DNA from: a virus
Reading direction: 5' to 3' (one strand)
Length of the DNA: 18,172 nucleotides
IMG/VR virus record: IMGVR_UViG_3300028591_000955
Coordinates: 1 to 18,172 of that record
The notes under the pieces were generated by a model. That model was not told the origin of the DNA. It did not search any database and saw only the letters and a list, made by a program, of their open reading frames with translations. The translations under genes and the position numbers were made by a program. Below are positions 1 to 18,039 of the stretch, one piece after another (the stretch's first letter is position 1; every line of letters starts with the position of its first letter).

Positions 1-3000
1 ATTATATTCAATTGTTCGTGTTCCATATCTCCACTTGCCAAACCATAGCTTTCCGCAATACCAGTAATTTCAACTCTTAATCGTCCTAATTCTTTTGGAG
101 TATAGCCAAGATTAATAAAAGGAATACGTGCCATAAAGTTTTCAATATCAGGCATTGTTTCGCCTTCATATAAATAATGTTCTACACCATATTCATCTTT
201 ATATAAATGCCGTTGACCCGCATTTGGATTTTCTGTTGTTCGAACACCACCTCAATACATTCCGTATCCTGCGAAACCTTCGTGGCTTCAAATATCTCCA
301 AAATAAAGAACTTTTTGCTCGTAATCTTGGCTTTCTGGATCGTGCGGTTCTACTAAACTATCATAGATAAACTTAATACTGTCTAATTCTGCTAATTCAT
401 CAACAGAATACCATCTTTCTGGTTCGTATAAACGACCGCCACTACAACTAACTGGCTTATATCTATTAAACCATTCATTTGGCATATAATCAACAAGTTG
501 GACTTTATCTTCAAACTCATCAATTCGGAAAGTAAAAGTATCACTTGCGATTAAATGGTCTTCTCCAATTTCATCTCTAAAATATTCAACTGGGACATAG
601 ATAGGAGCAACTTGATAAACAATTTCATAACTTTCTTTTAAATCTTCTGGCTTATCAAGTCTTTCATCCATCTCATACCATTCAAAAGTTTGTCCGTCTA
701 AATAATATTTTTCTGGCTTAAAACGATTTTTATCTACATAAAAATCAATATATTCACCATCTCTAAAATCACTTTGATCTAATGAAACAGTATATTCTCC
801 AACAGGTTCATATGTTCTAATACCATAAATTTTTTTCTTAAACTTGATAGTTGTAGTATAAACCTTGATTTCTTCATCTATTGGATGATATACGATATCA
901 TATGGAGAACCCTCTACTACACGCGGTAAAGAAACTCTTCTACCAGTATACTCAAAATCTGTTTCGTATCCTGGTGGCTTATATTTATTTATTCTAACAA
1001 TATCTCCAAAAGAAGGAACTTGATAAAAATCTCTTTCAAGTAAAGTAATAGTTTCTTCTTTTAGAAGAGTTCTAACACCCGGTTCGTCTTCTTTTCAATA
1101 ATTTACTGAAATTGCGGTCGGGCGTTCTTCATAAATAACATTAAATGTTCTACCATTTAAATTATCAAAACTAACAATAAAATCATCATCAACCATTACT
1201 TTTCCATTATGGTAATAAGCGGGTTGATAACGATCGACTTGGAAACGTTCATATAAATCTAATTCATAAACTGTCTTAAACTCATCGCCACGCATCCAGT
1301 ATTGAATTGAGTTAATTAACTCTGAACCTTTGTAGTAATTAACTACATAAGAACCTATTTTATGTGCTAAATTAGTATCAACATAGCGAGTATCATCTCT
1401 TATGTTAAAACTATTTTTTCCAGTATAATCTTCAAAGAATAAACCAGTAATTTTATCATATAAACAATTGCTTGGAGCAACTTTATCTCCGATTTTATCA
1501 TAAAACTGAACTGGAATAAAATCTCTTACGAGCTGGCCGTCATAATAAATCTTACAACTATAAATACCAACATTAGAAATACCCGTATGTTTTTGAGGAG
1601 ACCCATTAGTGGCATTACAGAATAAATAAATCGGACAGCCAAGATTGGAAGATGATGCTGTCATTGGATAAGAATAGGTAAATACTGCTCTGCTTTCTTT
1701 ATTTGGGATATCTACTGTGTAAATACCACTATTTTCTGAAAAACTACGAGCTTCACTTTCTACAATAGCAACACCGTTGTGATTAGCAAAATCTGCTATA
1801 ATTTGTTCTGGACCGCCACTTTCTTGTCTGACAACAGATAATTCATAATTACCATCTCTAAAATCTGGTAATTCACCAATTCTACCGCCGGCACACGCTT
1901 CATACATATTGTCTAATATTCTTGTGCTTGTGCCAGTAGCAGTAAGATTTCTATTATGATATCTCATAAAGAAAGCAGAAGTTATTCCCAAGTTTTCTGA
2001 ATATCTCGCTGCTCCAAATAAATAACCATATTTTGGATTGGTTGCGGACATTGGCTGATCTGGATGGACTAATTCAACTTCCATTTGGATAGATAGTTTA
2101 GATGGGTCCGCAACAGATACGCCTGTATTGATACCAGCATTATTTAAAGTTCATTCTGGATGAAGAGCATTTAAATCTGCTGAACCCATATCATTATGTT
2201 CCAAAAATAAAAATCTATGTGGATATTCATAATCTTGTGGTTCACCAGCGTCTTCATTTAAAGTATAAACAACATTTAATGCTTCTAATACTACCAACGC
2301 TCCAAATGATACTAATCCTTGGTAATCTACAACACCATTCTCTGCGTTAATATTTTTATAGCGATTAAGATTTAATCCTAAATCAAATAAAGTTGTTTCA
2401 TCCGTAAAATCAATAACTCTATAAGAAATAACATCACTACCAACTCAATTTTCGTCCGAGATTGTATTATTATAATATCTGACTGGTGTTTCATAAGTTT
2501 TCGCTAAATAAATAACATCATAGCTGGACCCAAGCTCCTCAAACGTAAATAATGTGGAACCTATACCGCCATCGATGAAACCATCATCATAATATTCTGG
2601 CTTATACCGATTAAGATCAATTAACTGATTTAATCGAACACCGCCAATTGCTTCACTTTCATTTATAGTAATTAAACTTGTGTTGATGGTTGAATAAGCA
2701 GAAGCGAGTTCTTGCTTATATCTAACAATAATATTTTTGCTTCTATCTTGCGAAACAGGAATGTAGATTACTTCAAAAGGAGATGCGTTCAATAACGCAG
2801 ATAAACTCACTTCACCATTATAAAGTAATGATAAATCTACTTGATAGCCATCTGTTTTATGTTTGTTTAATGGAATGATTTCCCCTAATGTAGGTTCACC
2901 CACAAACATTAAATCATTGATTTCTATCGTTTCTGAAATTGGAGTATCAGTTTCTCCGTGCTCGTAATAACGAACGGTAATAGGATAATTTATAGGTTTA

Positions 3001-4388
3001 TAATAAACCTGTAAAACACTTCTATTAACCAAATCGTCAAAAGTGAGGATTTCCTCTGCTTTTAACATAACTCCATTTTCATAAAAAGTTGACTTATATT
3101 TATCAAGATTAAGATTTAAATCTTCAATTAAATTAAAACTATCTTCATACTTATCTTGATATGTTAGTGTTAAAACATCAGAGTTAATTCTTAACCAATT
3201 AGGATATTCACCATTATAATATTCAATATAAATATTTAAGGGTTTCTTGCTATATTTTACGTCATAATTTAATTCAATAGTATCATAAGAAATTAAATCT
3301 TGTAAATTATGATTTTCAATATATCCAGTATTAAAATATCTTATATTAGGAATATATAGATTTGGATTGATAATATCTTGTAAAGTCATTCCGTCAGCAA
3401 TATCACCTTGTTTTACAACAACGACAGAATGATTTACTACCTCAAAACTACCATCGTCTTTTTCTACTGAATAATTAACAACGACTGTTTTTTGCTGCTC
3501 GGATTGTATTTTATCATAATAAATCTGAATAGGGCTTGCCAATAAAAGATTTTCTACTGTTAATTCATCTTCAAAAATAACAGATGCTTTATATCCATTT
3601 GGCTTATATTCTTTTAGATTTATTAACTGTCCGATAGTGCGAGCATCTTGAACCTGTTTTGCGGTAAAAGAAAAGTCTTGTTCCAAAAGTTGGTTATAAT
3701 ATCCGCCTCCATCATTCATTAAATAAGAAAGTGTGATAGTATATCGTGTTGGTTCATAGTTAATAATTACCGCTCTGATATTCGCGAGATTTTCAAAAGT
3801 TAAATCAACCCCTCGCAAATTAGTAGCAACACCATCTTCATAATAATCCATTTTATATTTATTTACATCAATTCCAATAGAGGCCAATGTATCTCCTGTG
3901 CCCTTAAAGGCCGCATTACGAAGAGTAATTACATCGGTCGCAATTAAAGTTGTGCTATCGCGATAATATAAAATAGTTAATCTGGTGCTGTCAGTTAAAC
4001 GCTGATTTGTTGTATAAACTTCACGTTCACCTTTTGCGTAATCGCTGGTAAAATTATACCTAACAATAAAATTACCATTTTTTAATCGTTCAGTTGAGGC
4101 TTCCCCTTTCATTGTTAAGTTAAATGTTAAATTGATATCATCAAAACTTACACAAGAGGTTTTTAGTAATTGTGTTAATTTGCTAATTTTTATAAAAGCG
4201 TCTTCTTCATTTTGACCCAAAACTAAAAAAGCCAACTGAACTGGTCTAAAACGCTCTTGTTGGCGAATATAAGTAGGTTGAATATCGCCGTCTAATCAGT
4301 CTTGTTTTGTATCAACTGTATTGCTGTTTAACACTCTATCATACAACTGGATACCAAGACTGCTTAAATCAATACCATTTATTAGCAT
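1..4388 (-). CDS. Giant tail-tip protein whose 3' end runs off the window (>1,460 codons). Dit-like (distal tail protein) N-terminal domain fused to MucBP-like repeats and a central lectin/jelly-roll-like domain. Read with TGA=Trp.
   Basis: ATG at 4386-4388 with AGGAGG at 4395-4400. Track ORFs 2445..4235, 1095..2084 and 288..671 share one frame. I hand-translated the gaps (4236-4385, 2085-2444, 672-1094, 3-287) and found no TAA/TAG, only TGA at 4296, 2445, 2151, 1095, 288 and 252. The N-terminus MLINGIDLSSLGIQLYDRV...LAFLVLGQNEED...VSFDD resembles siphophage Dit N-domains (recollection, not a search). Confidence 0.75.
300..3986 (-). repeat. Array of >=11 divergent ~75-85 aa protein repeats inside the giant tail gene: about 7 copies at ~2210-3986 and 4 copies at ~300-1340, flanking a non-repeat domain at ~1340-2200
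   Basis: Recurrent core motif: VNKYKMDYYEDG, LKEYKPNGYKAS, LDKYKSTFYENG, LNKHKTDGYQVD, LNRYKPEYYDDG, LNRYKNINAENG, VDRYQPAYYHNG, INKYKPPGYETD, KNRFKPEKYYLDG, FNRYKPVSCSGG. Each copy starts with a Y.V.Y-type strand and ends with a Y[DEN]V.Y-type strand. This pattern is typical of MucBP-like beta-grasp adhesin repeats. Boundaries are approximate. Confidence 0.65.
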
Positions 4389-4543
4389 TAAATACCTCCT
4401 TTTCTTTTTAACTCCAAACCTATTTCATTCAATAGGTCAGTTTTAATTTCTTGTTCTTTTTCATCAAGACCTGAACGAACATCTTGATAACTTGTTTGAG
4501 GCATCTGGATTTCAATTTGTTTCATTACATCTTTATAATCCAT
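4388..4543 (-). CDS. Hypothetical 51-aa helical protein between the chaperone-like gene and the Dit-like gene
   Basis: ATG at 4541-4543 follows GGAGG with a 7-nt spacer. Translation: MDYKDVMKQIEIQMPQTSYQDVRSGLDEKEQEIKTDLLNEIGLELKRKGGI. Its TAA overlaps the next ATG (TAATG). Below the track's size cut-off, so it is my own translation. Confidence 0.5.
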   Translation of the reverse strand: MDYKDVMKQIEIQMPQTSYQDVRSGLDEKEQEIKTDLLNEIGLELKRKGGI

Positions 4544-4554
4544 ATACTTTCCTC

Positions 4555-5064
4555 CTAAACATTAAAATTGCGGAATGTTTGATCGTGCTCTTTAACAGAG
4601 CCAATTTCATAATTTTTTTCTTCGGTTATCTTAATTGGGTCATCATCATTCGCAGCCACTTTTTTTAATGCTAATAGGGTTAAGTTGGCGGTTAATTCTT
4701 GACGACGTAAATAACCGATATAAGCATTTTCTACTTCATCTTCTGTCATATTAAAAAAATCAGTAGGCGAAATACCCATTTCACCTACTGACTTCTTATA
4801 TAATTCAGATATTCTTTCTGATGAAGGAAAATCCAAATGGGACAATAAAGTAGAAAGTTCTGATTTTGTTAAATCGTATGGCTGAAAATTATTTAATATA
4901 GAAGATATAAGAAGTTCATTCGTCCCTACTCTTGTCCCTAATTTGAGAACATCTTCGACAGAGATTTCCTCATTATTATCTATAAGATAAGAAAGTTGAA
5001 TTAAACTTTTCAGTCCAAAAATGAGCGGGACATATTTCTTATCTATTTTAATATAATACACCAT
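4555..5064 (-). CDS. Tail assembly chaperone-like protein (called by position)
   Basis: Track ORF 4555..5094 trimmed to the ATG at 5062-5064 (MVYYIKIDKKYVPL...). It lies immediately downstream of the major tail gene and ends in TAG. The function is inferred from synteny only. Confidence 0.4.
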   Translation of the reverse strand: MVYYIKIDKKYVPLIFGLKSLIQLSYLIDNNEEISVEDVLKLGTRVGTNELLISSILNNFQPYDLTKSELSTLLSHLDFPSSERISELYKKSVGEMGISPTDFFNMTEDEVENAYIGYLRRQELTANLTLLALKKVAANDDDPIKITEEKNYEIGSVKEHDQTFRNFNV

Positions 5065-5449
5065 CAATCTCTGCTCGTAAGCTGCCTGTTCCAAGCAAAC
5101 TTATTCTATATTTATAACTATCATCATATGTAGATGATAGAGGAAAATCAACAATAAGAGCCTCTCCTGAATAAAATCCAGAAGATGTTTGTAGTTTAAC
5201 TTTTATACTCTTATTATTCATAAACGCGTCTTCTATTTTTTTATAACTTTCAGCATTTAAAATATAGGCCCCATTACAAATGATCTTTCAACTCTTTATA
5301 CCAACCAAAGAGGTTTGCCATTCGCCAGTAATTTTATTGGTGATATCAATAGGTATTAAAGAACGATCAAGATTAACATTTAATTGACCTGCTACTGGAC
5401 TATCGTCTAATAAAAGAAGTATATTTATGCCCTTTTGGATATTACTCAT
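5048..5449 (-). CDS. Major tail protein (TP901-1/phi13-like, 133 aa), one in-frame TGA
   Basis: ATG at 5447-5449 follows GAGGGGGA. Track ORF 5288..5479 continues in frame through TGA 5288-5290 to TAA 5048-5050. The sequence ...ITGEWQTSLVGIKS[W]KIICNGAY...SGEALIVDFPLSSTYDDSYKYRISLLGTGSL matches the pattern of small siphophage major tail proteins. Confidence 0.7.
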
Positions 5450-5450
5450 A

Positions 5451-5840
5451 TTAGTCCCCCTCTTTCGTTCCAATAACAATATTAAATGTATACGTTATAA
5501 CACCGTGTTTGCGAACGGGGCCGGTCGCCTTATCACCCAATATTCGGCACTGATGTTGAACTATATTCAGAACTTTTTCATTATTCATCTTTATTTCTTG
5601 AATATTGTTACCAATATTTTCAATAATCTCTAAAATCTCTTTTTCGCCAGGATAATTAGAGAAAATATCAATGGTTAAAGATATTTGGTCTATTCTAATA
5701 TCATAAGCATCAACTCTATTATGGCCTGATGTTCTAACAATTAACCAAGGAAATTGTTCTTCGTATTGTCCTCCATCTTTTATATTATACCCCAATTTTT
5801 TTAATAACGCAACTAATTGCTTTTTTAATTCATTAACCAT
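5451..5840 (-). CDS. Tail terminator / tail completion-like protein (DUF3168-like, 129 aa)
   Basis: Intact track ORF with AAGGGGG upstream of the ATG, positioned directly before the major tail gene. The motif ...FPWLIVRT...ISLTIDIFS... is typical of this family (recollection). Confidence 0.5.
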   Translation of the reverse strand: MVNELKKQLVALLKKLGYNIKDGGQYEEQFPWLIVRTSGHNRVDAYDIRIDQISLTIDIFSNYPGEKEILEIIENIGNNIQEIKMNNEKVLNIVQHQCRILGDKATGPVRKHGVITYTFNIVIGTKEGD

Positions 5841-6035: not shown

Positions 6036-6596
6036 TTAAATTATTTCAACTTCTGGAACATAGCCTCCTGGGCCTGAACCAGAACCACGAGACGAATAAT
6101 CTGCTCCTAACATAACTTTTGCGGTAATTATAACCGCACTTACAATCATTGTAGCCAACAATCCAATTAGCGAAAATCCGAAATCAATACCGCCCTCTTC
6201 ATCGTCTTCCATTTCTTCCATCTCTTCTTCATATCGCTCTTGTTCTTCTTCCATCGCTTCTTCCATAGCCATTTGTCATAACGGCATAGCTTCTCCAAGA
6301 GCCATTCTATAAGCTGGTTCAAAATAAGGCTGGGCGGCCATTTTCCAAGTTCCATATTCTACATACTGTGCGTATTCTGCTTCTGCGTAAGCTTCACATC
6401 AAGTATCATAACCTTCTGCTCCAATAGTGCTTTGTAAAAAACCGGTATCTACTGGAACTAATGTTGTTGCTATATCATAAAAGGTCTCTGCGAATGCCGC
6501 ACAACCCTCACTATAATCTGGTTCAATTCCATAGATAGGCGTTGCGTCCATAAAGCCCAAATCTTCAATTACATCAAAACCAACTCAAAGTCCCAT
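6036..6596 (-). CDS. HK97 gp10-like head-tail joining protein fused to an acidic stretch, a transmembrane-like helix and a Gly-rich tail (186 aa, three in-frame TGA)
   Basis: ATG at 6594-6596. Hand translation runs in frame through TGA at 6585, 6399 and 6276 into track ORF 6036..6272. The core ...LVPVDTGFLQSTIG...YAQYVEYGT.KMAAQPYFEPAY is the gp10-family signature. The C-terminus is EEAMEEEQERYEEEMEEMEDDEEGG, then IDFGFSLIGLLATMIVSAVIITAKVML, then SSRGSGSGPGG. Confidence 0.65.
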
Positions 6597-6608: not shown

Positions 6609-7172
6609 CTATTCATTCTTTAAATAAATACAATATCCATTATTACTTGGGTATAAATCGCTTGTCGAAGCAGTTGACGAACTTCAAATATTTATATATC
6701 CCTCGTCTATATCAATACTGCCGCTTAATCCAGATTGAGGGCCCAATAAAACAGGAACTTTTGCGGTAGTGTCGGAGCTGGAATTAGCAGCAAAAAGGGT
6801 ATATCCGATGTTGCTTGAAGAAGTATTCATTTTATATATATTATTATCATAAAATGGGGCATAAACGTAATATGCCGGTGTCCCACCAGAATAAGATGCT
6901 CGATGAAAAAAGAACATTATAATTTGACTATTATCATCAAAATCATTTGGAAGATTAGCGTAAATTCGCCATTTACCATTAACCTTTCTTGTGGACCTAG
7001 ACATAGGACGGACAGCAACTTTTATAGTTGCTGTCCCGCTCCCTAATGCTTCTATTTCAGTTGCCATATCAGAAGGAGATAATTTTTCAGAACTACCTGT
7101 TTTTTCTCTAATTGCGTCGGCGATATCTACTAATGTGCTATTTTGTATAATATAATTTTCTGATAATGCCAT
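6609..7172 (-). CDS. Fibre-cassette protein (187 aa), one in-frame TGA
   Basis: Track ORF 6684..7172 continues through TGA 6684-6686 to TAG 6609-6611. Its ATG overlaps the upstream TAA. The N-terminus NSTLVDIADAIREKTGSSEKLSPSDMATEIEAL is a motif I recall from Firmicutes phage fibre-like proteins. Confidence 0.55.
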
Positions 7173-8094: not shown

Positions 8095-8316
8095 CTACAT
8101 ATTATTTCATATATCATCAATATCAGAATTGGTAAGTATTTCTCTACCAATCATATTCAAATTATAATCACCCACTGCTGGCATTACCCCTCCAACTCTA
8201 TTATTTCAAGAAATAACGCCATTTTCTCCGGGGTCTCCTTTTGGGCCAGCAGGACCGCGAATAGAAGTTATTTCAACCCATTCGCCATTAGCATTTTTAA
8301 TTTTTAATACTGCCAT
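8095..8316 (-). CDS. Small collagen-like protein (73 aa), two in-frame TGA
   Basis: ATG at 8314-8316 follows AGGAGG. Translation: MAVLKIKNANGEWVEITSIRGPAGPKGDPGENGVIS[W]NNRVGGVMPAVGDYNLNMIGREILTNSDIDDI[W]NNM. TGA at 8206 and 8107, TAG at 8095-8097. G-X-Y triplets fall at ~8218-8256. Own translation. Confidence 0.6.
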
Positions 8317-8319
8317 AAA

Positions 8320-9957
8320 TTATTCCTCCTGTGCCGTAGCTACAAGATTTCCAGAAGTATCTACTGTGATTTCATACACTTTTCCATTCGCATCTTTTAA
8401 GTATAAAGCAGTTGCGGCATTGGCTTGTGTGGTCGGAATTTCAGATTTAAGTGCATAATTATTCCTAATGTATAACAAGTCTGCACCTACGGTAGACGCT
8501 GCACCTGTAACACTTTGGTTTGTTTTAACAGATAATCCTTCTGCACTTATTGGAACGCCTAGTTCAGTATTTACTGATGCATTATTTAATGTATAATCAT
8601 CCTTATTAAATGAAATAACTAATCTTGGAAGTATGCTTTTACCACTCGTATTTGCAAAACTATCGCTCTCATATATTAATTGATGAGCAGCATTTGTTGT
8701 TCTCTGCATTTTTAGTTGTCAATAGTTAATTTTACTTCCATAATTATTATACTTAACTACTGGATAAATAAATCCATTAGATAAAGCTGTCCCCATATCA
8801 GCTAATCCAGTAGCATCTAACGAACTAATTGTATATAATTCATCAGTCCATGTATAACTGCCGCTACCTCCGCCAACTGCGGCAGTCGTCCATTCAACAC
8901 CTGTTTCATCAGATTTTACCCCAAGAACTTTACCCGCATCGCCAGAAGAAATAACTGGTAATTCTGCTTCGGGAATATCTGTTAATTTAGCATATTCTGT
9001 TTTAATAACTTCAAAATTATCATCTAAATATACAACATCAGGTGCTAATTTTCAACTATTCCCAACTTTAATATTTGATAAAGTTGCTTGGGAATACCAA
9101 ACAAAGTTCATAACACCATCTGGTTGCCACTCACCGTTAACAAGTGTGGCCCCCATTGATAACACTCCTCGCCGATTATCGGTCCCGTCAAAATATGCGT
9201 GGTAAACACGATTATAGCTATCATAATGACTTTCAATTAAAGAATAATGGTAGACGGTCGCCCCAGTGTTATATCATAAAATACAAGGATAATTTTCTGC
9301 TCCATATATTAAAACATTATATAAATAATCTTTATCTTCATCATCCAAATCTTGAATGCTAAAAAAACTGGTAGCCCCCTGAATTAAACGAGGTTTTTTG
9401 ATAGATACAATATTGTCGGTAATGTTAATACCTTCACCAGCCTCATAAGTTTCTCCACTGCTTTCTGGGATAACTGGTTTATCAACTAAATCATTATAAC
9501 TTCCAGTAGTAGCAACAGTTGCTAATTCCGGCATCTCTGGTAAATCATTACTTGTAATATAGCCAGCATCGTTATTAAAAGCCGAAACATTTGTAGGGAC
9601 GGTCGGAACGATAGGAATGTCTCTCTTTGTAGCAACCACTGTATCATCAATACTGACAACATCATTAGTAATATCAATACCTATTCCTGCGGTTAATGTA
9701 TTCCCAGAAGGCGAAACTGTTCCTTGCGGGTTAATCCAAACATTAACATTCTCATCTGACGGCTCCTCTGTTCCGACATACACACCAGATACCCCAGGTT
9801 CGCCATCCCGTCCTTGTAATTGGTCTAATTGTTCTTCTGTGAAATCTTCAAAAGTAAATGCGTCTCCCTTATCGCCTTTTGGTCCCTTTAAGACATTCAT
9901 TAAAGACGCAGTGATTTCAGGAGTTTCCATTTTTACTTTAATTTCAGGAGTTTCCAT
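8320..9957 (-). CDS. Fibre protein with short collagen-like G-X-Y runs (545 aa), three in-frame TGA
   Basis: Track ORFs 9274..9957 and 8320..8709 are in the same frame. I hand-translated 8710-9273 and found only TGA at 9274, 9052 and 8719. Motifs include GPKGDKGD, GRDGEPG, TAGIGIDITNDVVSI and IPIVPTVPTNVSAFNNDAGYITSNDLP. Stop is TAA at 8320-8322. Confidence 0.75.
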
Positions 9958-10599: not shown

Positions 10600-10896
10600 C
10601 TACACCGTTTTAACCTTTCTAAACTTGTTTAACATCTTTCTAATTTTATCACTATAAAAACTTTCGTAGGAAGCTCCTACACCAGACCCTCTCTGGCTGG
10701 TTAAGTTTTCGCTACCTAAACGATTAAAACGCTCAATAACCATTTCAATAACAATAAAATCAAGTTTATTATCATATTCTTCAAGATTACAATAAATATA
10801 TGCTTGCTGCTTACAAATACTAATTAAAGTGTTTAATGTTTTATCAACAGTAGGATCATCCATTTTGTTTAATAAAAGTTTAATTTTTTCTAACAT
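10600..10896 (-). CDS. gp6-like head-tail connector protein (98 aa)
   Basis: Intact ORF with AAGGAG upstream. It is the first gene after the capsid terminator. The N-terminal pattern (LLLN...DD...D..L..LI..A...I..YC) is typical of gp6-like connectors (recollection). Confidence 0.55.
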   Translation of the reverse strand: MLEKIKLLLNKMDDPTVDKTLNTLISICKQQAYIYCNLEEYDNKLDFIVIEMVIERFNRLGSENLTSQRGSGVGASYESFYSDKIRKMLNKFRKVKTV

Positions 10897-10961: not shown

Positions 10962-11747
10962 TTATTCTTTTGTAATCTTAATAACACGAGTTGCGTCTGT
11001 GAGAGCAACAAGGGCAACCTTACGAGTGTAAACAGTATTCTTACGAATGTTAGCATCTCTTTCAGGTTCAACCTCAACACCCTTCTTAATAAAGCAAGTA
11101 GTAGCCTGCTTTGTGAATAAGAAAGCGGTGTCTTCTGGAACGGCCTTTGAAACTACAACAGGAACGCCGCAAACAGAACCAATATAGCCAGTGCGGACAT
11201 TGGCTTCAACATAAGAAAGGTCATCTTTAAGAGCCTTTCTGAACTCTGCCTTTTCTGCTGGGTTAATAAGAAGTGTTAAGCCTTCTTCTTCTTCATAAGG
11301 ATACTTCGCGATAGCATCAACTACTGCGTCATAACTCCAATCTGAAACTGAAAGTGTAAGAGTAGCCTTACCAAGTTCAGCAATAACCTTATCTGTAAGG
11401 TCATTAACCATTGCTTCGGAAATAGCCATCATACCTCTATCAACTACGATAGGATCTGTCATTTCCTGCTCGTCAAACCAAGCAAACTTACCCTGGGTTG
11501 TGCCAACATCGTATTCTTTTGGTGTAAAACTAACTTCAAACTCTTTTGTGTTGCCCTGACCCATTGCTAACTCTTCAAGTTCGCCACTGGCTGTGTAAGT
11601 GTTAATAATTTTCTTCATTCCAGGATTTTCAGTAAGACTGTAATCTGCTGTAATGAAACTATTCATATCAATTTTTGTCTTTAAAAGACTTTCAAGTTTA
11701 TTTTCTAATACAAAGTTTTCATAAATTGTATGTGGTGATACTGCCAT
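10962..11747 (-). CDS. Major capsid protein (HK97 fold, 261 aa)
   Basis: Intact ORF with GGAGG upstream, positioned after the scaffold gene and followed by a strong terminator. Codon usage is visibly more GC-rich than in neighbouring genes. No TGA; both Trp codons are TGG. Confidence 0.8.
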   Translation of the reverse strand: MAVSPHTIYENFVLENKLESLLKTKIDMNSFITADYSLTENPGMKKIINTYTASGELEELAMGQGNTKEFEVSFTPKEYDVGTTQGKFAWFDEQEMTDPIVVDRGMMAISEAMVNDLTDKVIAELGKATLTLSVSDWSYDAVVDAIAKYPYEEEEGLTLLINPAEKAEFRKALKDDLSYVEANVRTGYIGSVCGVPVVVSKAVPEDTAFLFTKQATTCFIKKGVEVEPERDANIRKNTVYTRKVALVALTDATRVIKITKE

Positions 11748-11767: not shown

Positions 11768-12346
11768 TTATTGAATAAACGATTTATACAATTCTGGATT
11801 AGTCCGGTATAGCTCCGCCTGCTGGGCGATAGTCATTTTGTTAAACTCTTCTTTTGTTAAACCAGTCTGTTTTACCGAACTGCTCTTTGGCGTAGGAGAC
11901 GCAACTTTCTGTGCTACCGCATCTGCGACAGCTGCCTTAAACGCTTTTTCAAAAGTGTTTATATTGTTTAACATTGTTTCCGCGTCTTCCGCTACGATAT
12001 AATCTACAAACTCTATCGGGAGACCTCTATTAGACATAACTTTCGTTGCTTCTAACTTGTTTTGAGCGATAGCGAACTCTTTTTCTTTCGCTTCAAGTTC
12101 TTGAAGTCGCTTGTCATATTCATAATCTTTACGCTGATTTTCATCCATCGCTCTTAATTTTTCGGCCTCTGCGGTCTTCGCTTCAAACTCTTTCTGTTGC
12201 TTTTTTAACGCACTTGAAACTCTCCGGTCGCCTTCGGCTTGTAATAGAGCCTGGACTTCTTCTTCGGTATAAGTTTTCGGTGCGGCATCCCCTGTTTCAG
12301 TTGGTGCTCCAACAGAACCCTTTTCCGTTTCTTTATTTTCAATCAT
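11768..12346 (-). CDS. Capsid scaffolding protein (DUF4355-like, 192 aa)
   Basis: Track ORF 11768..12373 trimmed to the ATG at 12344-12346, which follows AAGGA. The sequence is charged and helical (EEEVQALLQAEGDRRVSSALKKQQKEFEAKTAEAEKLR...) and lies directly upstream of the MCP. Confidence 0.7.
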   Translation of the reverse strand: MIENKETEKGSVGAPTETGDAAPKTYTEEEVQALLQAEGDRRVSSALKKQQKEFEAKTAEAEKLRAMDENQRKDYEYDKRLQELEAKEKEFAIAQNKLEATKVMSNRGLPIEFVDYIVAEDAETMLNNINTFEKAFKAAVADAVAQKVASPTPKSSSVKQTGLTKEEFNKMTIAQQAELYRTNPELYKSFIQ

Positions 12347-12449
12347 AAAAATATCCTTTCTAACTGCCCTCAATAGAGTTCAGTTTAGGGTTTCTCCCTC
12401 TTATACATATAATAATTCTTTTTTTTTAATAGAACAAAATCGCCCAATT

Positions 12450-13346
12450 TTATTCATCAAAGTCTTCAACTTCGCTAATTTCTACTTCTTCTGTATATGC
12501 CACAAAAGAACAAGCACAATTTGGATGGTAGGGAGGAAGATCAATTCCAATAGCGGCATCTTTAATTGGAACCGGGTCTCCATCTACATAATCTAAACAA
12601 ATACCGCCACATTCCGCATCACCAACAATTTCAACAAACTCAACACCTTCTGTAATCATTCGTTCTTTTGCGGCTTCTGAAAACATAGCCATTGTTTCTG
12701 TTTTTATAAGTCTGGCTGCGGCATAAGCGGTAGAGCCTGTTAACTTTCTCCAAGCCTGGACCATTCAATCATAGCCCTTACCCTTTTCAATGCCCTGCTC
12801 TAATACATAACTTAATTTATCTCTAAAATTAGCGACATTCGCATACATTCTTTCAGAATAAATCTTTCCATCAGAACATCAAGGTATTTCAATATAATGT
12901 TCTGTAATATATGTATCTGTAATTTGAACTGGTGGAAACTCTGGATTTATCACAGGAAAATGATAAATCTCGCCAATTTGCTGATACGTTTTTTGATATG
13001 TATCAATCATATTCTCTTTTATGACATTACAAGCAATCCAGAAATATTCAGTAAAACGTCTCCACTCTTTTTCTTCAATTTCTTTTAATGCCATATAAGT
13101 CTTTGGGTGGTTGTATAATTTTATCTTTTCCTGCGGAACCAGAACCCCATCTTTTTCCAATTTTTTCAATTCTTTAATACATTCTTTGAAAGTTTCTTCG
13201 CTGATGTCATTTAAATATCTTTCTAATTTATTATCATTTTTATACGCATCAGCCAAGAGTTCAAGAACCAACGCCACAGTCAATTCTTCATACTCGTTAT
13301 GTATATGCGGCAAACGCTTGAAGTAGTATCTATCAAATCTACTCAT
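12450..13346 (-). CDS. Minor head protein, SPP1 gp7 / Mu F-like (298 aa), two in-frame TGA
   Basis: Track ORFs 12879..13346 and 12450..12764 are in the same frame. The gap translates as [W]CSDGKIYSERMYANVANFRDKLSYVLEQGIEKGKGYD[W]M..., with TGA at 12879 and 12765. The C-terminal signature is ARLIKTE...DAECGGICLDYVDG...PPYHPNCACS. Confidence 0.85.
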
Positions 13347-14694
13347 TATCTGCTTCTACCTTATTTAAATGATAGTTCTCTTGATACAAAGAGAGTGTAT
13401 CATTATAAAAAGGGCTCTTTTGTTTCATTTCTTCTACTCTGCGGATTTCTTCTTGTGGGTCTTCCACGAAAGGAAGTTGTGATAGTAATGTCTCCGCACT
13501 AACAATACCGTCTAATTTTTCAACCATATTTGCTAAATCAACCTCATTAGCTGGCAAGTTTCTCTTAAAGTGAATATCAATTGAACGTCAATCGAAACCA
13601 TCTCCAAGAATAGCATTCATTTGAGCGATTAACTCAAATCTCTGTTGTAATCCCCTCTTAAACTTACGCTCTTTAATAGATACAAGGTTCTCTGTTCCCA
13701 AAGTCTTATACTCGATAGCAATACCAGAAGTATTCCCAGCAAAATTATCATCTGTTAAGTTCGGGCATTTTGCGAACTTATGAATGTCCTGGTCTAATCT
13801 AATCTTCTGATTTTCTATATTTGTATCACTGGCATTTTTAATAAGCCATTCCGCATTCGTCCCCTCATCCATAAGAAGGACACGATTTTCTTTCATTTGT
13901 TTAATATCTTCTGCGTCCGCAGTGAAACCATATAAGCACAAATAGGCGTCAGCGGCATATTCAAAATCATTTAAACTATCGCTTTCCATCTTATCATACG
14001 CATCAATAAGCGAAATAACAGGCTCAAAATCACCAATTTCTTCATTGTTATTTTTATAAATGGCTACTGGAACCATACCGAAGTAATGATTATAACTTTC
14101 AATAAATCTTAATGAAGTATTACCAGTTGTATTAGTTTTATAGATAGTATGACTTGTATCTGTGATAACTTCAATTACAGTTTCTACCTTATCAGTTGTA
14201 ATATCATAATCATCATAATACCTAATAAAAGCCAAAAGCGAATGTTCTACTGTCTTATCAAAAATTGGAATACCTTCTTTTGGCGAAATAGTAGTAAATC
14301 TAATCATTTTATCTTCTTCACCAAAATATAATAACTCAAAACCGACACCAAAAATACTACAATTCTTTGCCAATTCAGTATTTTCATCAGCCTCATCGTT
14401 ATATTCCAAAATCATTTGTAATTCTTTTAATTTTTCCTCATCATTAGAACTATATGAAATCGGTTCACCAACGAAATAACCTACCAAAGTATCTGTAATA
14501 TAACTGGCATAAGCATTTGCCACTTTGTTATTAGGTTTTGTTGGGTCAGACATTTGTCTACGATTTATATCATTATCAGTATGATAATAACGTTCTAACT
14601 TCAATAAACGAGGTAGCACAGATGATTTATGCTTTTCAACGATACGCAATATCGTTTTTTCATCTAATTCATCTACATTATTTAATGTAATCAC
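13339..14694 (-). CDS. Portal protein, SPP1 gp6 family (451 aa), one in-frame TGA
   Basis: GTG at 14692-14694 follows GGAGG. Track ORFs 13588..14694 and 13339..13557 join in frame through TGA 13588-13590 (...GDGFD[W]RSIDIHFKRNLPANE...). Stop is TAG at 13339-13341. Confidence 0.9.
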
Positions 14695-14704
14695 ACTATA
14701 CCTC

Positions 14705-15943
14705 CTATAACAACAAATCTTTCTTTATAGATTGTAATTGCGGTTTTGCCTCTACGCACTGAATAGAATAACGCAACGCATCCAAATAGTGGTTCCATAA
14801 ATCAACTGGTTCGTTGATATATTCATTAGTTTGTCGGTCTCTTTTTCACGAATAATTTTGTAATTCTTCAATCAAAGCCTCACAAGACGGATGAATAATC
14901 AATTCATACTGTTGAAGTTTTTGAATACCTTGTAAAATACTACCTTTTCCTTTCGCACACGGAAATATCCTACGAATACCAGCACGTTTTATTTCATCAA
15001 TACTCTTGTTCTCCGCACTATCAGCACAAATAAGGCTTTTAGCAAAACCCATCTCTTTTATATTTTTAGCAATCTCATCATTCAAATAACCAGTTCCGCC
15101 CCATTCTTTAAATACATATATACGCTGTTCTTCTGGAACCAACAGGGCTGCGACAAAAGCAGAAGGATCATTAGTATAACCAAAGTCTAATCCGCACATA
15201 AGCTGGCCTTTAATCTTATCAGCATCAAAATCCACTATCTGCCAGTTATTATAAATCAATTTTTCTAATGAACCAAACTCGCCAAGACAATAAATCTTAT
15301 AATATGCTGGGTTTGTTTTTTCCAAAAGAAGCAATGTATCCACATAAGTTTGCGGCAAATGCGGGTTATCTAAATAATTTGTTTTAATTATTCTACATTT
15401 TTTCAAAAACTCTTTATCTGCTTCCGGTGAAAAAAAGTTTTTGAAACATCAATTCGCTTTTGACACAGGGTTGAAAGAAAGAATTAGCATCTGGTCTTTC
15501 GCTGTTTCGTGTCTAATACGCAAGTCAATCTGCGAAAAATCATCAACAGAAAACTCTGTCGCTTCTTCAAGCCACGCATCAGTTAAACCAGTAATTGATT
15601 TTATTTTTTCAGGATCATCAAGTCCAGCAAATAAAAAAGAACTGCCATTATACAATTCAATTGTAAAGTCAGTTCTATTTATTTTACAATAAGGTAATAA
15701 TTTTCAAGAAGATAATATATCCAAAAGCAATTGAAATACCGACCTCTTTATAGTATTACCTACTTTTCGTAATACTAAAATCTTCCTCTTACTTTTTAAC
15801 GCCTTAATAATTAAGTATTCTGCGGCAAAAAAACTCTTTCCTGAGCCTGCTCCTCCATACAACACTAAATAACGAGGCAACTCTTCTTTTAGCAACGGAT
15901 AGTAAACTGGATTGAAGACATTTTTATTAAAACGGATTTCCAT
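14705..15943 (-). CDS. terL: Terminase large subunit (PBSX/Terminase_3-like, 412 aa), three in-frame TGA
   Basis: Track ORFs 15704..15943, 15449..15655 and 14846..15406, plus a hand-translated tail (14705-14845), form a single frame. Walker A is YGGAGSGKS. TGA at 15704 (..ILSS[W]KLL..), 15449 (..NPVSKAN[W]CFKNFF..) and 14846 (..LQNYS[W]KRD..). Stop is TAG at 14705-14707. Confidence 0.95.
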
Positions 15944-16200
15944 TATAAAAATAAAACGTTTCCGTGCTGAACCAAGAGCATTCTTAATAAATACGATGTT
16001 CTTAAATCAAGATCTTTCATAACCTCAATTAACTTCGTTAATTCTTCTTGATCGTTAGTTGTCGGCATCTTGATAGAACGCATCTTAATTAAGGCTTGGT
16101 TAAATGCTGTTGCCGCATTCGCCGCCTCTTGGTAAGCATCTTCTACTTCTTTCATCTTTGCGTCAAAATCAATGACACCCTTTTTTTCAGTATCTGCCAT
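15943..16200 (-). CDS. Hypothetical 85-aa helical protein between terS and terL
   Basis: Intact ORF coupled by TAATG overlaps to both terS and terL. No recognisable motif. Confidence 0.5.
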   Translation of the reverse strand: MADTEKKGVIDFDAKMKEVEDAYQEAANAATAFNQALIKMRSIKMPTTNDQEELTKLIEVMKDLDLRTSYLLRMLLVQHGNVLFL

Positions 16201-16583
16201 TATAAGTCCTCCTCATTATCATTAAACGATATATCAATCGTATAGTTCATTTTATTTGCTTCAAGTCCAATAGACTTCGCCAATAATTCTAATGCTTTTA
16301 ACTTTGCGGAAGTATTATAAATAGGATCTCCCTTTTCCGCAAAAGCAATCTCGCTTAATTCTTGCGTAATACGCTTACTATCTATATTTATACTTTCATA
16401 TATTTCGTCTCTTCGCTGTGCGATATATTCTGCGATTTCGGGTTTCTTTAAGAGGGTATATGGATAAGATGGTTGTTTATTTCTACTATCTGCTCCAAAA
16501 GCCTCATAATACGCCTTGCGGGCGTTAAATCCATTTGAAATATATTTTTCCGCAAAGAGTTTCTGTTTTTGCGTCATTGCCAT
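16200..16583 (-). CDS. terS: Terminase small subunit (Terminase_2-like, 127 aa)
   Basis: Intact ORF with GGAGGGG upstream. The N-terminus MTQKQKLFAEKYISNGFNARKAYYEAF is the classic terS helix-turn-helix opening. Confidence 0.85.
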   Translation of the reverse strand: MAMTQKQKLFAEKYISNGFNARKAYYEAFGADSRNKQPSYPYTLLKKPEIAEYIAQRRDEIYESINIDSKRITQELSEIAFAEKGDPIYNTSAKLKALELLAKSIGLEANKMNYTIDISFNDNEEDL

Positions 16584-17291: not shown

Positions 17292-18002
17292 CTAAAAGAC
17301 GAAATGTTCTTCTTTTGGAATAATTGTTTCTTCTTCAAAAAATCTTCCTTTTTCTTCCGTAGTTTGTGCGACAAAAGTTAATAACTTTCTTGGAACTGGG
17401 TGAACCGAATGCTCTGTATCATAATAATCTTCATAATCAATAAAATGATTGGCTTTAAGGTTTTTTAAGATATTTTTTAAAACCATTTCAATTTGAGAAT
17501 TAGCACTACCACGAGTAGAAGCACTATAACCAAAAGCAACTTTTAATTCGTGTATTGTAAAGTCATATGTGCTACCCTCTTTTTCTTTCCACAAATATTT
17601 ATCCAATAAATAAACATACACTCGGACAGCCATTTTATTATAAACAGAAGTGAGTTCTTGTAATATTCCAGCAGAGACGACGCAATATTTGCTTATTTTA
17701 TCGTATGGAAAATAATATTGCTTTGTTTCCTCATCAAAAGCCATCAATTCATTTTCTTCGCTCATTAACACTTCAATTTTTCTGGAAATGGTGCGAGAGC
17801 TTTTCTTACCAAGTAAATCCGCTAATACAACTTTCGCATCTTGTAATGCCTTTTCTGTTAAGTATACTCGCTTTTTTACATTATCATAAGTAGCAATTCC
17901 TTGTAAATAACCGTATACAATGTCATCAATTTTAAACGACATAAAAGCACCTTCGGTAGGCATACGACGAGGGTGCTGGATTTCTTTCTTAATTATAGCC
18001 AT
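17292..18002 (-). CDS. Winged-helix DNA-binding protein, replication-initiator/replisome-organiser-like (236 aa)
   Basis: Track ORF 17292..18014 trimmed to the ATG at 18000-18002, which follows AAGGAG. The segment ...MAVRVYVYLLDKYLWKEKEGSTYDFTIHELKVAFGYS...LKNLKANHFIDY looks like a Rep/DnaD-type wHTH. Iterons lie immediately downstream. Function is inferred only. Confidence 0.4.
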   Translation of the reverse strand: MAIIKKEIQHPRRMPTEGAFMSFKIDDIVYGYLQGIATYDNVKKRVYLTEKALQDAKVVLADLLGKKSSRTISRKIEVLMSEENELMAFDEETKQYYFPYDKISKYCVVSAGILQELTSVYNKMAVRVYVYLLDKYLWKEKEGSTYDFTIHELKVAFGYSASTRGSANSQIEMVLKNILKNLKANHFIDYEDYYDTEHSVHPVPRKLLTFVAQTTEEKGRFFEEETIIPKEEHFVF

Positions 18003-18039
18003 ATTTATAAACACTCCTTATCTCATTTAGCCATCTCTA

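What the first reader, a model, noticed from the sequence alone, without database searches (positions are those of the whole stretch)
1..4388. Giant Dit-like tail-tip protein carrying >=11 MucBP-like repeats and a lectin-like insert
This single reading frame of more than 1,460 codons is still open at the window edge. Its parts are:
- an N-terminal domain that looks like a siphophage distal tail protein;
- about 7 divergent ~80-aa repeats with the core [LIV]N.[YF]KP.GY, the pattern of MucBP-type adhesin repeats;
- a ~300-aa non-repeat domain at ~1340-2200, including ...IYLFCNATNG...GIYSCKIYYDGQLVRDFIPV...CLYDKITGLFFEDYTGKNSFNI, which resembles jelly-roll/lectin-type binding modules seen in uncharacterised phage and gut-bacterial proteins;
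- 4 more repeats and a further C-terminal region.

'Evolved' Dit proteins with one or two carbohydrate-binding inserts are known. A Dit extended by an adhesin-like repeat stalk of this size would be unusual. It suggests a long flexible host- or mucus-binding appendage at the baseplate.
Basis: partly seen in the sequence, partly recalled or inferred. Interest (0 to 1): 0.65.

Follow-up and report, generated by a model that had tools for sequence, protein, structure and literature searches.

The report
Giant split distal-tail adhesin of phage
The window holds the first half of a 2,990-residue phage tail-tip protein that starts with the ring domain of the distal tail protein (Dit) and continues as a long chain of small beta-grasp repeats and lectin-like modules, in a ~25-kb phage that reads TGA as tryptophan and seems to keep only a 51-residue remnant of its tape measure.

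Summary
On the minus strand, one frame runs from ATG 4388 off the window edge (1,462 codons) if its six in-frame TGA are read as Trp. It contains 11 divergent ~80-aa repeats (7 + 4) around a ~300-aa non-repeat domain.

- **N-terminal 134 aa:** truly homologous to the ring domain of canonical Dit proteins.
- **Repeats:** beta-grasp domains that resemble Mub and InlB repeats in fold only. They are not Pfam MucBP members.
- **Central domain:** a ConA/LamG-type lectin jelly roll.

New findings:
- Near-identical contigs show the full protein is 2,990 aa, with about 15 repeats and probably three lectin-like modules. That is about 35% of a ~25-kb genome.
- The Dit galectin domain is not in this protein. 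It is a separate 118-aa gene just downstream, followed by Tal, so the Dit is split.
- The only thing in the tape-measure slot is a 51-aa ORF (4388-4543) resembling the extreme C-terminus of relatives' 960-aa tape measures.
- Relatives encode the same gene in the standard code or with TAG recoded. Only this lineage uses TGA.

Most likely function: six long, flexible, multivalent glycan-binding fibres anchored in the tail-tip ring.

The parts
1..4388 (-). Giant Dit-N adhesin gene. The first 1,462 of 2,990 codons are visible; the frame runs off the window edge.
   Evidence: The frame is open only if TGA is sense. Contigs L037-L039 are 98-99% identical in protein and give 2,989-2,990 aa ending in TAA, with 25-27 TGA.
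4395..4399 (-). Ribosome-binding site GGAGG, 7-11 nt upstream of the ATG.
   Evidence: Read directly from the sequence.
3987..4388 (-). Dit N-terminal (ring) domain, aa 1-134.
   Evidence: HMM homology to canonical Dits. AlphaFold2 model core pLDDT 67-86. Foldseek top hits 4v96, 9j1k, 9m8o, 6v8i.
2262..3986 (-). Beta-grasp repeats R1-R7, aa 135-709.
   Evidence: Fold inferred from the model of R8.
1356..2261 (-). Lectin-like jelly-roll domain 1, aa 710-1011. It carries a 33-aa insert specific to this lineage.
   Evidence: Alignment. Model of the homologous domain of P0010, pLDDT 81. Foldseek hits to the YwfG L-type lectin, neurexin LNS and ConA/LamG-like phage proteins.
360..1355 (-). Beta-grasp repeats R8-R11, aa 1012-1343.
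   Evidence: R8 was modelled at pLDDT 89-97 per 10-residue block.
1..359 (-). Start of lectin-like domain 2, aa 1344-1462. It continues beyond the window.
   Evidence: In the full-length protein this domain ends with the same motif as domain 1.
4388..4543 (-). 51-aa ORF, a candidate vestigial tape measure. Its TAA stop overlaps the ATG of the giant gene.
   Evidence: Its C-terminal motif aligns with the last ~21-30 residues of the 960-aa TMPs of classical relatives. The exact sequence occurs on at least 23 contigs.
4555..5064 (-). Tail-assembly-chaperone-like gene, 169 aa.
   Evidence: Assigned by position. Its L001 homologue gives a weak Phage_TAC_12 hit, E 0.013. The gene was called as 169 aa in L037.
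5048..5449 (-). Major tail (tube) protein, 133 aa.
   Evidence: phrog_1407, E 9e-25. PF06199 in relatives.

Best explanation
This is the phage's main adhesion device, built on a split distal tail protein.

**Anchor.** The first 134 residues are the Dit ring domain. They are expected to form the hexameric ring between the tail tube and the Tal trimer.

**Fibre.** Instead of continuing into the usual peripheral galectin domain, each subunit continues into a ~2,850-residue 'beads-on-a-string' arm:
- 7 beta-grasp repeats, then lectin-like jelly roll 1;
- 4 repeats, then a larger lectin-like domain 2;
- 2 repeats, then a ~930-aa distal region. By homology with relatives this region has an SH3b-like stretch, one or two more repeats and probably a third lectin-like module.

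**Proposed action.** Six such arms per virion would act as long, flexible, multivalent glycan-binding fibres. They would capture the host cell surface, probably cell-wall polysaccharide of a Gram-positive bacterium, and bring the tail tip to the envelope.

**Companion genes.** The galectin domain of Dit is supplied in trans by the 118-aa gene immediately downstream, followed by a minimal 339-aa Tal.

**Shown:** the frame, the TGA=Trp reading, the repeat anatomy, homology of the N-domain, the folds, synteny and full length.

**Inferred:** hexameric assembly, fibre geometry, sugar binding and the identity of the target.
For: **N-domain**
- The profile hits 158 cluster representatives.
- 69 of the 77 that are 151-300 aa long carry the Dit C-domain in the same chain.
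- P0034 and P0043 match phrog_33 and phrog_202 'distal tail protein Dit' and PF22768.
- Foldseek top hits come from siphophage baseplate or tail-tip entries, E 1.5e-4 to 4e-3.

**Split Dit**
- In every locus that reaches past the end of the giant gene, a 115-134-aa ORF follows it. This ORF is only the Dit C-domain (PF22768 E 1e-12, phrog_33 positions 167-278). Tal comes next.
- That ORF aligns with residues ~130-232 of the same canonical Dits that the N-domain retrieves.
- No other Dit N-domain was seen between the tube gene and Tal (gene tables).

**Folds**
- The model has pLDDT 81 and pTM 0.79.
- It matches the Lactococcus adhesin YwfG (L-type lectin plus Mub domains, mannose-binding; bioRxiv 10.1101/2022.08.19.504583) at E 4.5e-4.
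- It also matches LamG/LNS, sialidase lectin domains and beta-grasp domains, and ConA/LamG-like phage proteins.

**Other support**
- The 7+4+2 repeat architecture is conserved at 40-50% identity.
- Among three near-identical strains, amino-acid changes are 2-3 times denser in the lectin-like and distal regions than in the repeats (Fisher p = 0.002). This fits a structural stalk carrying the specificity modules.
- SH3_3 is found in the distal region of relatives.
- The portal's nearest relatives are Clostridium, Streptococcus and Staphylococcus siphophages.
- Experiments show that evolved Dits promote host adsorption (PMC10688798, PMC7291167).
Against: - The giant protein has no direct Pfam or PHROG hit. 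Dit identity therefore rests on transitive homology plus a model of moderate confidence (mean pLDDT 58).
- That model was made from homologue P0010, 64% identical, because the tool rejected the TGA-containing window sequence.
- Matches of the repeat to Mub and InlB are weak (E about 0.5).
- No sugar-binding residues were examined.
- The host is unknown, and no relative was found in GTDB species genomes.
- A distal tail protein whose galectin domain is detached has not been described in the literature I could search, so its assembly is conjecture.
Confidence: 0.7

Rival explanations
1. The arms bind the phage's surroundings rather than the host receptor. Targets could be mucus glycans or plant or feed polysaccharide. 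Virions would be kept where hosts live, an adherence role like that proposed for capsid Ig-like domains.
For: The best structural analogue is a bacterial surface adhesin built from lectin plus Mub-type domains. The lectin/stalk design is generic for glycan adhesion. Record names such as 'STEW19-1 ... METAG' suggest a gut or rumen origin, but I could not verify this.
Against: This protein is the sole carrier of the Dit ring domain, and no other obvious receptor-binding protein follows the 339-aa Tal. SH3b-type domains usually bind peptidoglycan (general knowledge). Strain-level variation concentrates in the lectin-like modules, as expected for host-range determinants.
Confidence: 0.15
2. The N-domain is a paralogous tube/Dit-fold module. 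It attaches the protein as side fibres to the tube or collar, while the functional distal ring is formed by something else.
For: Dit, tube, terminator and Hcp share one fold, and lower Foldseek hits include tube and terminator proteins. Tube proteins with C-terminal decorations are known (general knowledge).
Against: Sequence homology is specifically to the N-domains of canonical Dits, E down to 3e-30. The gene sits exactly at the Dit position, just after the TMP remnant and before DitC and Tal. A separate major tail protein exists. No second Dit N-domain is present in the tail modules examined.
Confidence: 0.08
3. The giant protein replaces the tape measure: it sits in the TMP gene slot and scaffolds or measures the tail.
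For: It immediately follows the chaperone-like gene, and no normal TMP is present.
Against: The modelled parts are beta-rich globular domains, not the long helical protein that a TMP is. Its N-terminus is a Dit ring domain. A small ORF carrying the TMP C-terminal motif still precedes it.
Confidence: 0.04
4. The long frame is an artefact or a pseudogene: a repeat mis-assembly, or three real ORFs separated by genuine TGA stops.
For: Table 11 splits the frame, and no suppressor tRNA is found in the window.
Against: Trp is conserved at the TGA positions. TGA also interrupts terL, portal and other essential genes in the window. Standard-code relatives carry the uninterrupted gene. At least 23 contigs carry the same locus. 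No high-identity DNA repeats are present.
Confidence: 0.02

Closest known systems
Classical distal tail proteins (Dit) of Gram-positive siphophages: SPP1 gp19.1, TP901-1 ORF46, 80alpha gp58
   Same: The N-terminal ring domain is homologous. The gene lies just upstream of Tal. A PF22768 galectin-type C-domain is present in the system.
   Different: The C-domain is a separate 118-aa gene. About 2,850 extra residues follow the ring domain. The gene is preceded by a 51-aa ORF instead of a ~1,000-aa tape measure.
'Evolved' Dits with carbohydrate-binding modules (Lactobacillus J-1/PL-1, lactococcal skunaviruses, S. thermophilus phages; PMC7291167, PMC10688798)
   Same: The principle is the same: the Dit hexamer serves as a platform for extra glycan-binding modules that aid adsorption. 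True examples of this type occur in the same N-domain family (301-580-aa proteins with DitC interrupted at profile position 67/68).
   Different: Published evolved Dits carry one or two CBMs, for example a 168-aa insert, inside loops of the galectin domain of a single polypeptide. Here the addition is about 15 times larger. It starts at the inter-domain boundary, uses beta-grasp and ConA/LamG-type modules rather than BppA-type CBMs, and leaves the galectin domain detached.
600-1,050-aa relatives with Dit-N plus Flg_new_2 (InlB B-repeat) domains, found here (e.g. P0038, P0047, P0063; locus L034)
   Same: They share the N-domain and one giant-type repeat directly after it. They have the same synteny with a small ORF upstream, and a DitC-like domain in a separate downstream ORF.
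   Different: They are much shorter. Their repeats belong to Pfam Flg_new_2, which shows no profile similarity to the giant's repeats (hhalign probability 0.3%). No lectin-like domains were detected in them.
Bacterial surface adhesins built from lectin plus Mub/MucBP repeats (L. lactis YwfG, PDB 7yl4/7yl6; L. reuteri Mub, 3i57)
   Same: The domain grammar is the same: a ConA-like lectin module carried on beta-grasp stalk repeats.
   Different: No sequence-level relationship was found. This protein has no signal peptide or LPXTG context. It is anchored through a phage ring domain rather than to a cell wall.

Membership tests
Distal tail protein (Dit) | N-terminal beta-sandwich ring domain homologous to Dit N-domains | tested here: met
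   The HMM of aa 1-133 hits canonical Dits at E 3e-30 to 1e-5. Those hits carry PF22768 and match phrog_33/202 'Dit'. Foldseek top hits are from siphophage baseplate or tail-tip entries; I identified the chains as Dit by chain length and from memory.
Distal tail protein (Dit) | Peripheral C-terminal domain (galectin-like or OB fold) in the same polypeptide | tested here: not met
   0 of 6 giants and 0 of 20 mid-size relatives carry DitC in cis. It is a separate 115-134-aa ORF downstream. Ring-only Dits are known (lambda gpM, PMC7291167), so this does not exclude Dit function.
Distal tail protein (Dit) | Gene located between the tape measure and Tal | tested here: met
   In the same lineage (L037-L039) the order is tube, TAC-like, 51-aa TMP-like ORF, giant, DitC, Tal. 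The TMP, however, is vestigial.
Distal tail protein (Dit) | Forms the hexameric ring joining tube and Tal in the virion | not testable with these tools
   Needs cryo-EM or multimer modelling.
Evolved Dit (CBM-bearing) | CBM(s) inserted in loops of the galectin domain, with the N- and C-terminal parts aligning to a classical Dit in one chain | tested here: not met
   The extension begins right after the N-domain and the galectin domain is encoded separately.
MucBP (Pfam PF06458) / Mub repeats | Match to the family profile | tested here: not met
   No Pfam hit at E<=1. A profile of 60 repeats found no Mub/MucBP chain among PDB sequences.
MucBP (Pfam PF06458) / Mub repeats | Beta-grasp (ubiquitin-like) fold of the repeat | tested here: inconclusive
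   R8 was modelled at pLDDT 89-97 per 10-residue block. Foldseek finds Mub 3i57 (21% identity, E 0.54), HOIL-1 UBL, SUMO, protein L and InlB, all at weak E-values.
Flg_new_2 / InlB B-repeat | Profile similarity to the family | tested here: not met
   hhalign of the repeat profile against Flg_new_2 repeats from relatives gave probability 0.3%.
ConA-like lectin / LamG jelly roll | Jelly-roll fold matching lectin/LamG domains | tested here: met
   Foldseek against PDB: YwfG lectin E 4.5e-4, neurexin LNS2 probability 0.85. Against BFVD: E 3e-10 to 1e-3, including proteins annotated as LamG-like or ConA-like.
ConA-like lectin / LamG jelly roll | Carbohydrate-binding site and activity | not tested
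   No site analysis or assay was possible.
Tape measure protein | Long, largely alpha-helical protein with TMP profile matches | tested here: not met
   The modelled parts are beta-rich. No PF10145 or other TMP hit. tblastn with relatives' TMPs matches only the small upstream ORF.

The most novel reading that the evidence does not exclude
The lineage may be a siphovirus derivative that has collapsed its tape measure from ~960 to ~50 residues and so makes a very short tube. The reach of the tail would be handed to the distal tail protein, whose ring domain now carries six ~3,000-residue multi-lectin arms. The Dit galectin domain would be expressed as a separate subunit. This would be a distinct tail architecture: siphovirus parts, podovirus-like length and Dit-borne long fibres, in a ~25-kb genome that spends a third of its coding capacity on one adhesin.
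Probability: 0.35. Interest if true: 0.85.

Novelty: new variant of a known kind. Interest (0 to 1): 0.7.

Why it matters
- **Scale.** Dit is known as a platform for one or two small sugar-binding inserts. A ~3,000-residue extension that splits the Dit gene and fills about 35% of a small genome pushes that principle far beyond the reviewed cases I read. It shows how much of a phage's coding budget can go to host capture.
- **Tail length.** If the 51-aa ORF really is all that remains of the tape measure, these phages offer a natural test of how tail length, the initiator complex and DNA delivery work without a full-length TMP.
- **Genetic code.** One giant late gene is written in three codes among close relatives: standard, TAG-recoded and TGA-recoded. 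This makes a clean system for studying how stop-codon recoding arises.
- **Modules.** The repeat and lectin modules are unannotated families that could be mined as glycan-binding reagents.

Tried and rejected
**Searches that found nothing**
- Pfam and PHROGs on the whole 1,462 aa gave no hits. PHROGs on the N-domain alone and on the 51-aa ORF also gave none.
- Profile searches against PDB sequences gave only chance hits: N-domain, repeats and the canonical relative P0034.
- The search for homologous proteins with the repeat alignment returned nothing, with only 149 candidates scored.
- GTDB genome scan with the central-domain alignment found no relative.
- tblastn of the giant against 50,697 GenBank phage records found no match.
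- Literature searches for phages lacking a tape measure or with very short tails found nothing relevant. One query was malformed.

Homologue P0010 was modelled instead.

**Ideas considered and dropped**
- L002 as a decaying prophage that retains only the giant gene. Its fragmentation comes from TAG recoding.
- Code 25 (TGA=Gly). The aligned residues are Trp.
- Homology of the repeats to the Flg_new_2 repeats of mid-size relatives.
- A giant of ~1,970 aa, as the first database hits suggested. Many of the first database hits (e.g. P0011-P0018) are cut at in-frame TAG; L001's 1,948-aa ORF instead ends at a genuine TAA with the distal region in an overlapping frame.
Full report

The window is the late-gene module of a tailed phage on the minus strand (PHROGs):

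| Gene | Window coordinates |
|---|---|
| Small terminase | 16200-16583 |
| Large terminase | 14705-15943 |
| SPP1-type portal | 13339-14694 |
| Minor head protein | 12450-13346 |
| Scaffold | 11768-12373 |
| Major capsid | 10962-11747 |
| Adaptor | 10600-10896 |
| Neck1 / tail completion | 6036-6596 |
| Tail terminator | 5451-5840 |
| Major tail protein | 5048-5449 |

Several fibre-like proteins lie between the adaptor and Neck1.

Under the standard bacterial code the region 1-4388 falls into three ORFs. With TGA read as sense, one frame is open from 4442 to base 1. A strong GGAGG site precedes the ATG at 4388. 1,462 codons are visible and contain six in-frame TGA. TGA also interrupts terL, portal and other essential genes in the window.

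Three of the six TGA align with an invariant Trp in eleven homologues, and a fourth aligns with W/Y/I. TGA therefore means Trp, as in code 4, and not Gly.

The 7 + 4 repeat layout is real. An HMM built from the window's eleven ~80-aa units finds units at the same positions in all homologues. At the DNA level there are no tandem arrays and only short, 63-91% identical matches. The repeats are therefore old and diverged, and not an assembly product.

**2. The full gene**

An exact look-up of the small ORF just upstream found at least 23 contigs. Three of them, 23.4-25.3 kb long (L037-L039), were fetched. They are 98-99% identical to the window over the visible 1,462 aa.

- In them the gene is 2,989-2,990 codons long, with 25-27 TGA, 23-25 TGG and a TAA stop.
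- More distant relatives (40-50% identity) are 2,844-3,294 aa long.
- The 7+4+2 repeat core is found in all of them, plus one or two further repeats in the distal region.
- Many of the first database hits (e.g. P0011-P0018, 1,042-2,399 aa) were cut at in-frame TAG codons; L001's 1,948-aa ORF instead ends at a genuine TAA.
- Across relatives the same gene is written in the standard code (L001, L005-L008, L016, L018, L032), with 2-33 in-frame TAG (most IMG/VR loci), or with TGA. Only the window's lineage uses TGA.

**3. N-terminal domain**

Neither Pfam nor PHROGs hits the giant directly. A profile of aa 1-133 from eleven homologues was searched against 1.8 billion cluster representatives and returned 158 proteins.

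| Length class | DitC in the same chain | Interpretation |
|---|---|---|
| 151-300 aa | 69 of 77 | Classical Dit |
| 301-580 aa | 10 of 17, interrupted at profile position 67/68 | Classical 'evolved' Dit |
| 581-1,100 aa | 0 of 20 | Dit-N plus Flg_new_2 repeats |
| >1,100 aa | 0 of 6 | Giants |

- P0034 and P0043, from the first class, match PF22768 and PHROG 'distal tail protein Dit'.
- An AlphaFold2 model of the homologous P0010 N-domain has a core pLDDT of 67-86, with the 24-46 loop disordered.
- Its best PDB matches come from siphophage baseplate or tail-tip entries: TP901-1 (4v96), monocin (9j1k), NF5 (9m8o) and 80alpha (6v8i), at E 1.5e-4 to 4e-3. They rank ahead of tube and terminator proteins. 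I identified these chains as Dit by chain length and from memory.

**4. The Dit is split**

In every locus that reaches past the end of the giant gene, the gene is followed after about 12-18 nt by a 115-134-aa ORF. This ORF matches only the C-terminal domain of Dit (PF22768 E 1e-12; phrog_33 positions 167-278). A minimal ~340-aa Tal comes next.

That small ORF aligns at 35-40% identity with residues ~130-232 of the very ~230-aa Dits that the giant's N-domain retrieves. The ancestral Dit has therefore been separated at its inter-domain linker: the ring domain heads the giant, and the galectin domain is a separate gene.

The mid-size relatives (about 600-1,050 aa, with Flg_new_2 repeats) look the same. 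In locus L034 a DitC-like domain lies in a separate 214-aa ORF downstream.

Published evolved Dits are different. They carry one or two CBMs inside loops of the galectin domain of a single chain (PMC7291167; PMC10688798 reports a 168-aa insert).

**5. Repeats and non-repeat domains**

A model of the central domain plus repeat 8 of P0010 was built with an alignment enriched in all repeats. It is confident, with pLDDT 81, pTM 0.79 and 89-97 per 10-residue block over the repeat.

- *Best PDB match:* YwfG of Lactococcus lactis, E 4.5e-4. YwfG is a mannose-binding surface adhesin made of an L-type lectin domain followed by Mub-type domains (bioRxiv 10.1101/2022.08.19.504583).
- *Jelly-roll part:* it also matches neurexin LNS/LamG, sialidase lectin domains and botulinum Hc. 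In BFVD it matches uncharacterised phage proteins, several annotated as LamG-like or ConA-like, at E down to 3e-10.
- *Repeat:* it matches the Mub type-2 repeat 3i57 (21% identity), a ubiquitin-like domain, SUMO, protein L and InlB. All are beta-grasp folds, and all matches have weak E-values of about 0.5-1.4.
- *Sequence level:* the repeats match neither MucBP nor the Flg_new_2 repeats of the mid-size relatives (hhalign probability 0.3%).
- *Second non-repeat domain:* it begins at aa 1344 in the window and ends with the same motif as the first (..IY....LVRD.IPV......NGL.D..T..FF). A third copy of the motif lies near aa 2660-2716 of the full protein.
- *Distal region:* relatives carry a bacterial SH3 domain there.
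- *Strain variation:* among three near-identical strains, amino-acid differences run at 2.8-4.0 per 100 residues in the lectin-like and distal regions, 1.3 in the repeats and 0.8 in the ring domain (Fisher p = 0.002).

**6. Surroundings: a vestigial tape measure**

No normal tape measure gene lies between the tube gene and Tal in any of these loci. Contig lengths cluster at 23-27 kb with varied start points, which points to complete ~25-kb genomes with no room for one elsewhere.

Classical relatives differ. Locus L035 encodes a 238-aa Dit that shares the N-domain, and it has a 967-aa TMP (PF10145) in the expected place. L036 has a 959-aa ORF there that aligns with that TMP.

The only ORF between the chaperone-like gene and the giant is 44-76 aa long. 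In the window it is 51 aa, at 4388-4543. Its conserved C-terminus (..D.SM..LMN.IGLEVQR.GG) aligns with the last ~21-30 residues of those TMPs (..QDKESMDYFLNRLGLALNRV):

- alignment;
- HMM conditional E 3.5e-6, placed at residues 946-966 of 967.

The match is short, so I rate 'TMP remnant' at about 0.6-0.7. L016 lacks both this ORF and the chaperone-like gene. At the textbook figure of about 1.5 Å per TMP residue, 51 residues would measure only ~8 nm.

**7. Mechanism**

*Shown:* the ring-domain homology, the folds, the gene order and the size.

*Inferred:*
- Six copies of the N-domain form the distal ring.
- Each projects a flexible chain of beta-grasp beads that carries two to three lectin-like modules and an SH3b-containing distal part.
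- The galectin domain and Tal join as separate subunits.
- The arms provide multivalent, long-reach binding to surface glycans of a probably Gram-positive host. Portal relatives are all Bacillota phages.

Binding to mucus or feed polysaccharide instead of the host is the main rival and cannot be excluded.

**8. Novelty**

- No GenBank phage record contains a detectable relative of the giant.
- None of the 185,579 GTDB species genomes contains a relative of its central domain.
- No paper I could find links Dit with such repeats.

It works like an evolved Dit, but it fails the definition of one, and it fails MucBP membership. I class it as a new variant of a known kind. A more radical reading, a stubby siphovirus-derived tail with Dit-borne fibres, remains open.

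Noticed in passing
window 4388-4543 (-): A 51-aa ORF lies directly upstream of the giant gene. Its C-terminal motif matches the extreme C-terminus of the ~960-aa tape measures of classical relatives. No full tape measure exists in this phage group, which suggests a vestigial tape measure and a very short tail.
   Followed up: partly
whole window; loci L001-L039: The window reads TGA as Trp. TGA occurs in frame in terL, portal, the minor head protein, fibre genes, Neck1, the tube protein and the giant, but not in terS, scaffold, capsid or the 240-aa gene. Close relatives of the same giant gene use the standard code or in-frame TAG instead. No tRNA gene is present in the window.
   Followed up: partly
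window 6036-6596 (-): The Neck1 / HK97 gp10-like tail-completion protein carries an unusual C-terminal extension. It has a highly acidic helix-like stretch, then a hydrophobic transmembrane-like segment and a Gly/Ser-rich tail. The extension is conserved in L016 and might substitute for membrane-active TMP functions.
   Followed up: no
window 8320-9957 and 8095-8316 (-): Collagen-like (G-X-Y) fibre proteins of 545 and 73 aa are encoded between the head-tail adaptor genes and the neck genes. This is an unusual place for fibres, and they may be head or collar whiskers. The 545-aa gene has three in-frame TGA.
   Followed up: no
window 6609-7172 (-); L016 3473-4717 and 5621-6208: Several otherwise different proteins share an N-terminal motif (..L..IADAIR.KTG.S..L....M...I). 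It looks like a common anchoring module for exchangeable fibre proteins.
   Followed up: no
contigs of L005-L039 (23-27 kb): Genomes of this group appear to be only ~25 kb. Outside the structural genes I recognised only small HTH-like ORFs, a GIY-YIG or HNH (NUMOD4) nuclease, sometimes an integrase, and the 240-aa gene at window 17292-18014 (weak ScpB-like hit). No obvious replication module or endolysin was recognised.
   Followed up: partly
L001 15840-15847; L004 13104-13129: In two relatives the giant gene is split into two overlapping ORFs by a frame change: 1,948 + 960 aa, and 1,042 + 2,009 aa. In most others it is one frame. This could be sequencing error, decay or programmed frameshifting.
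   Followed up: no
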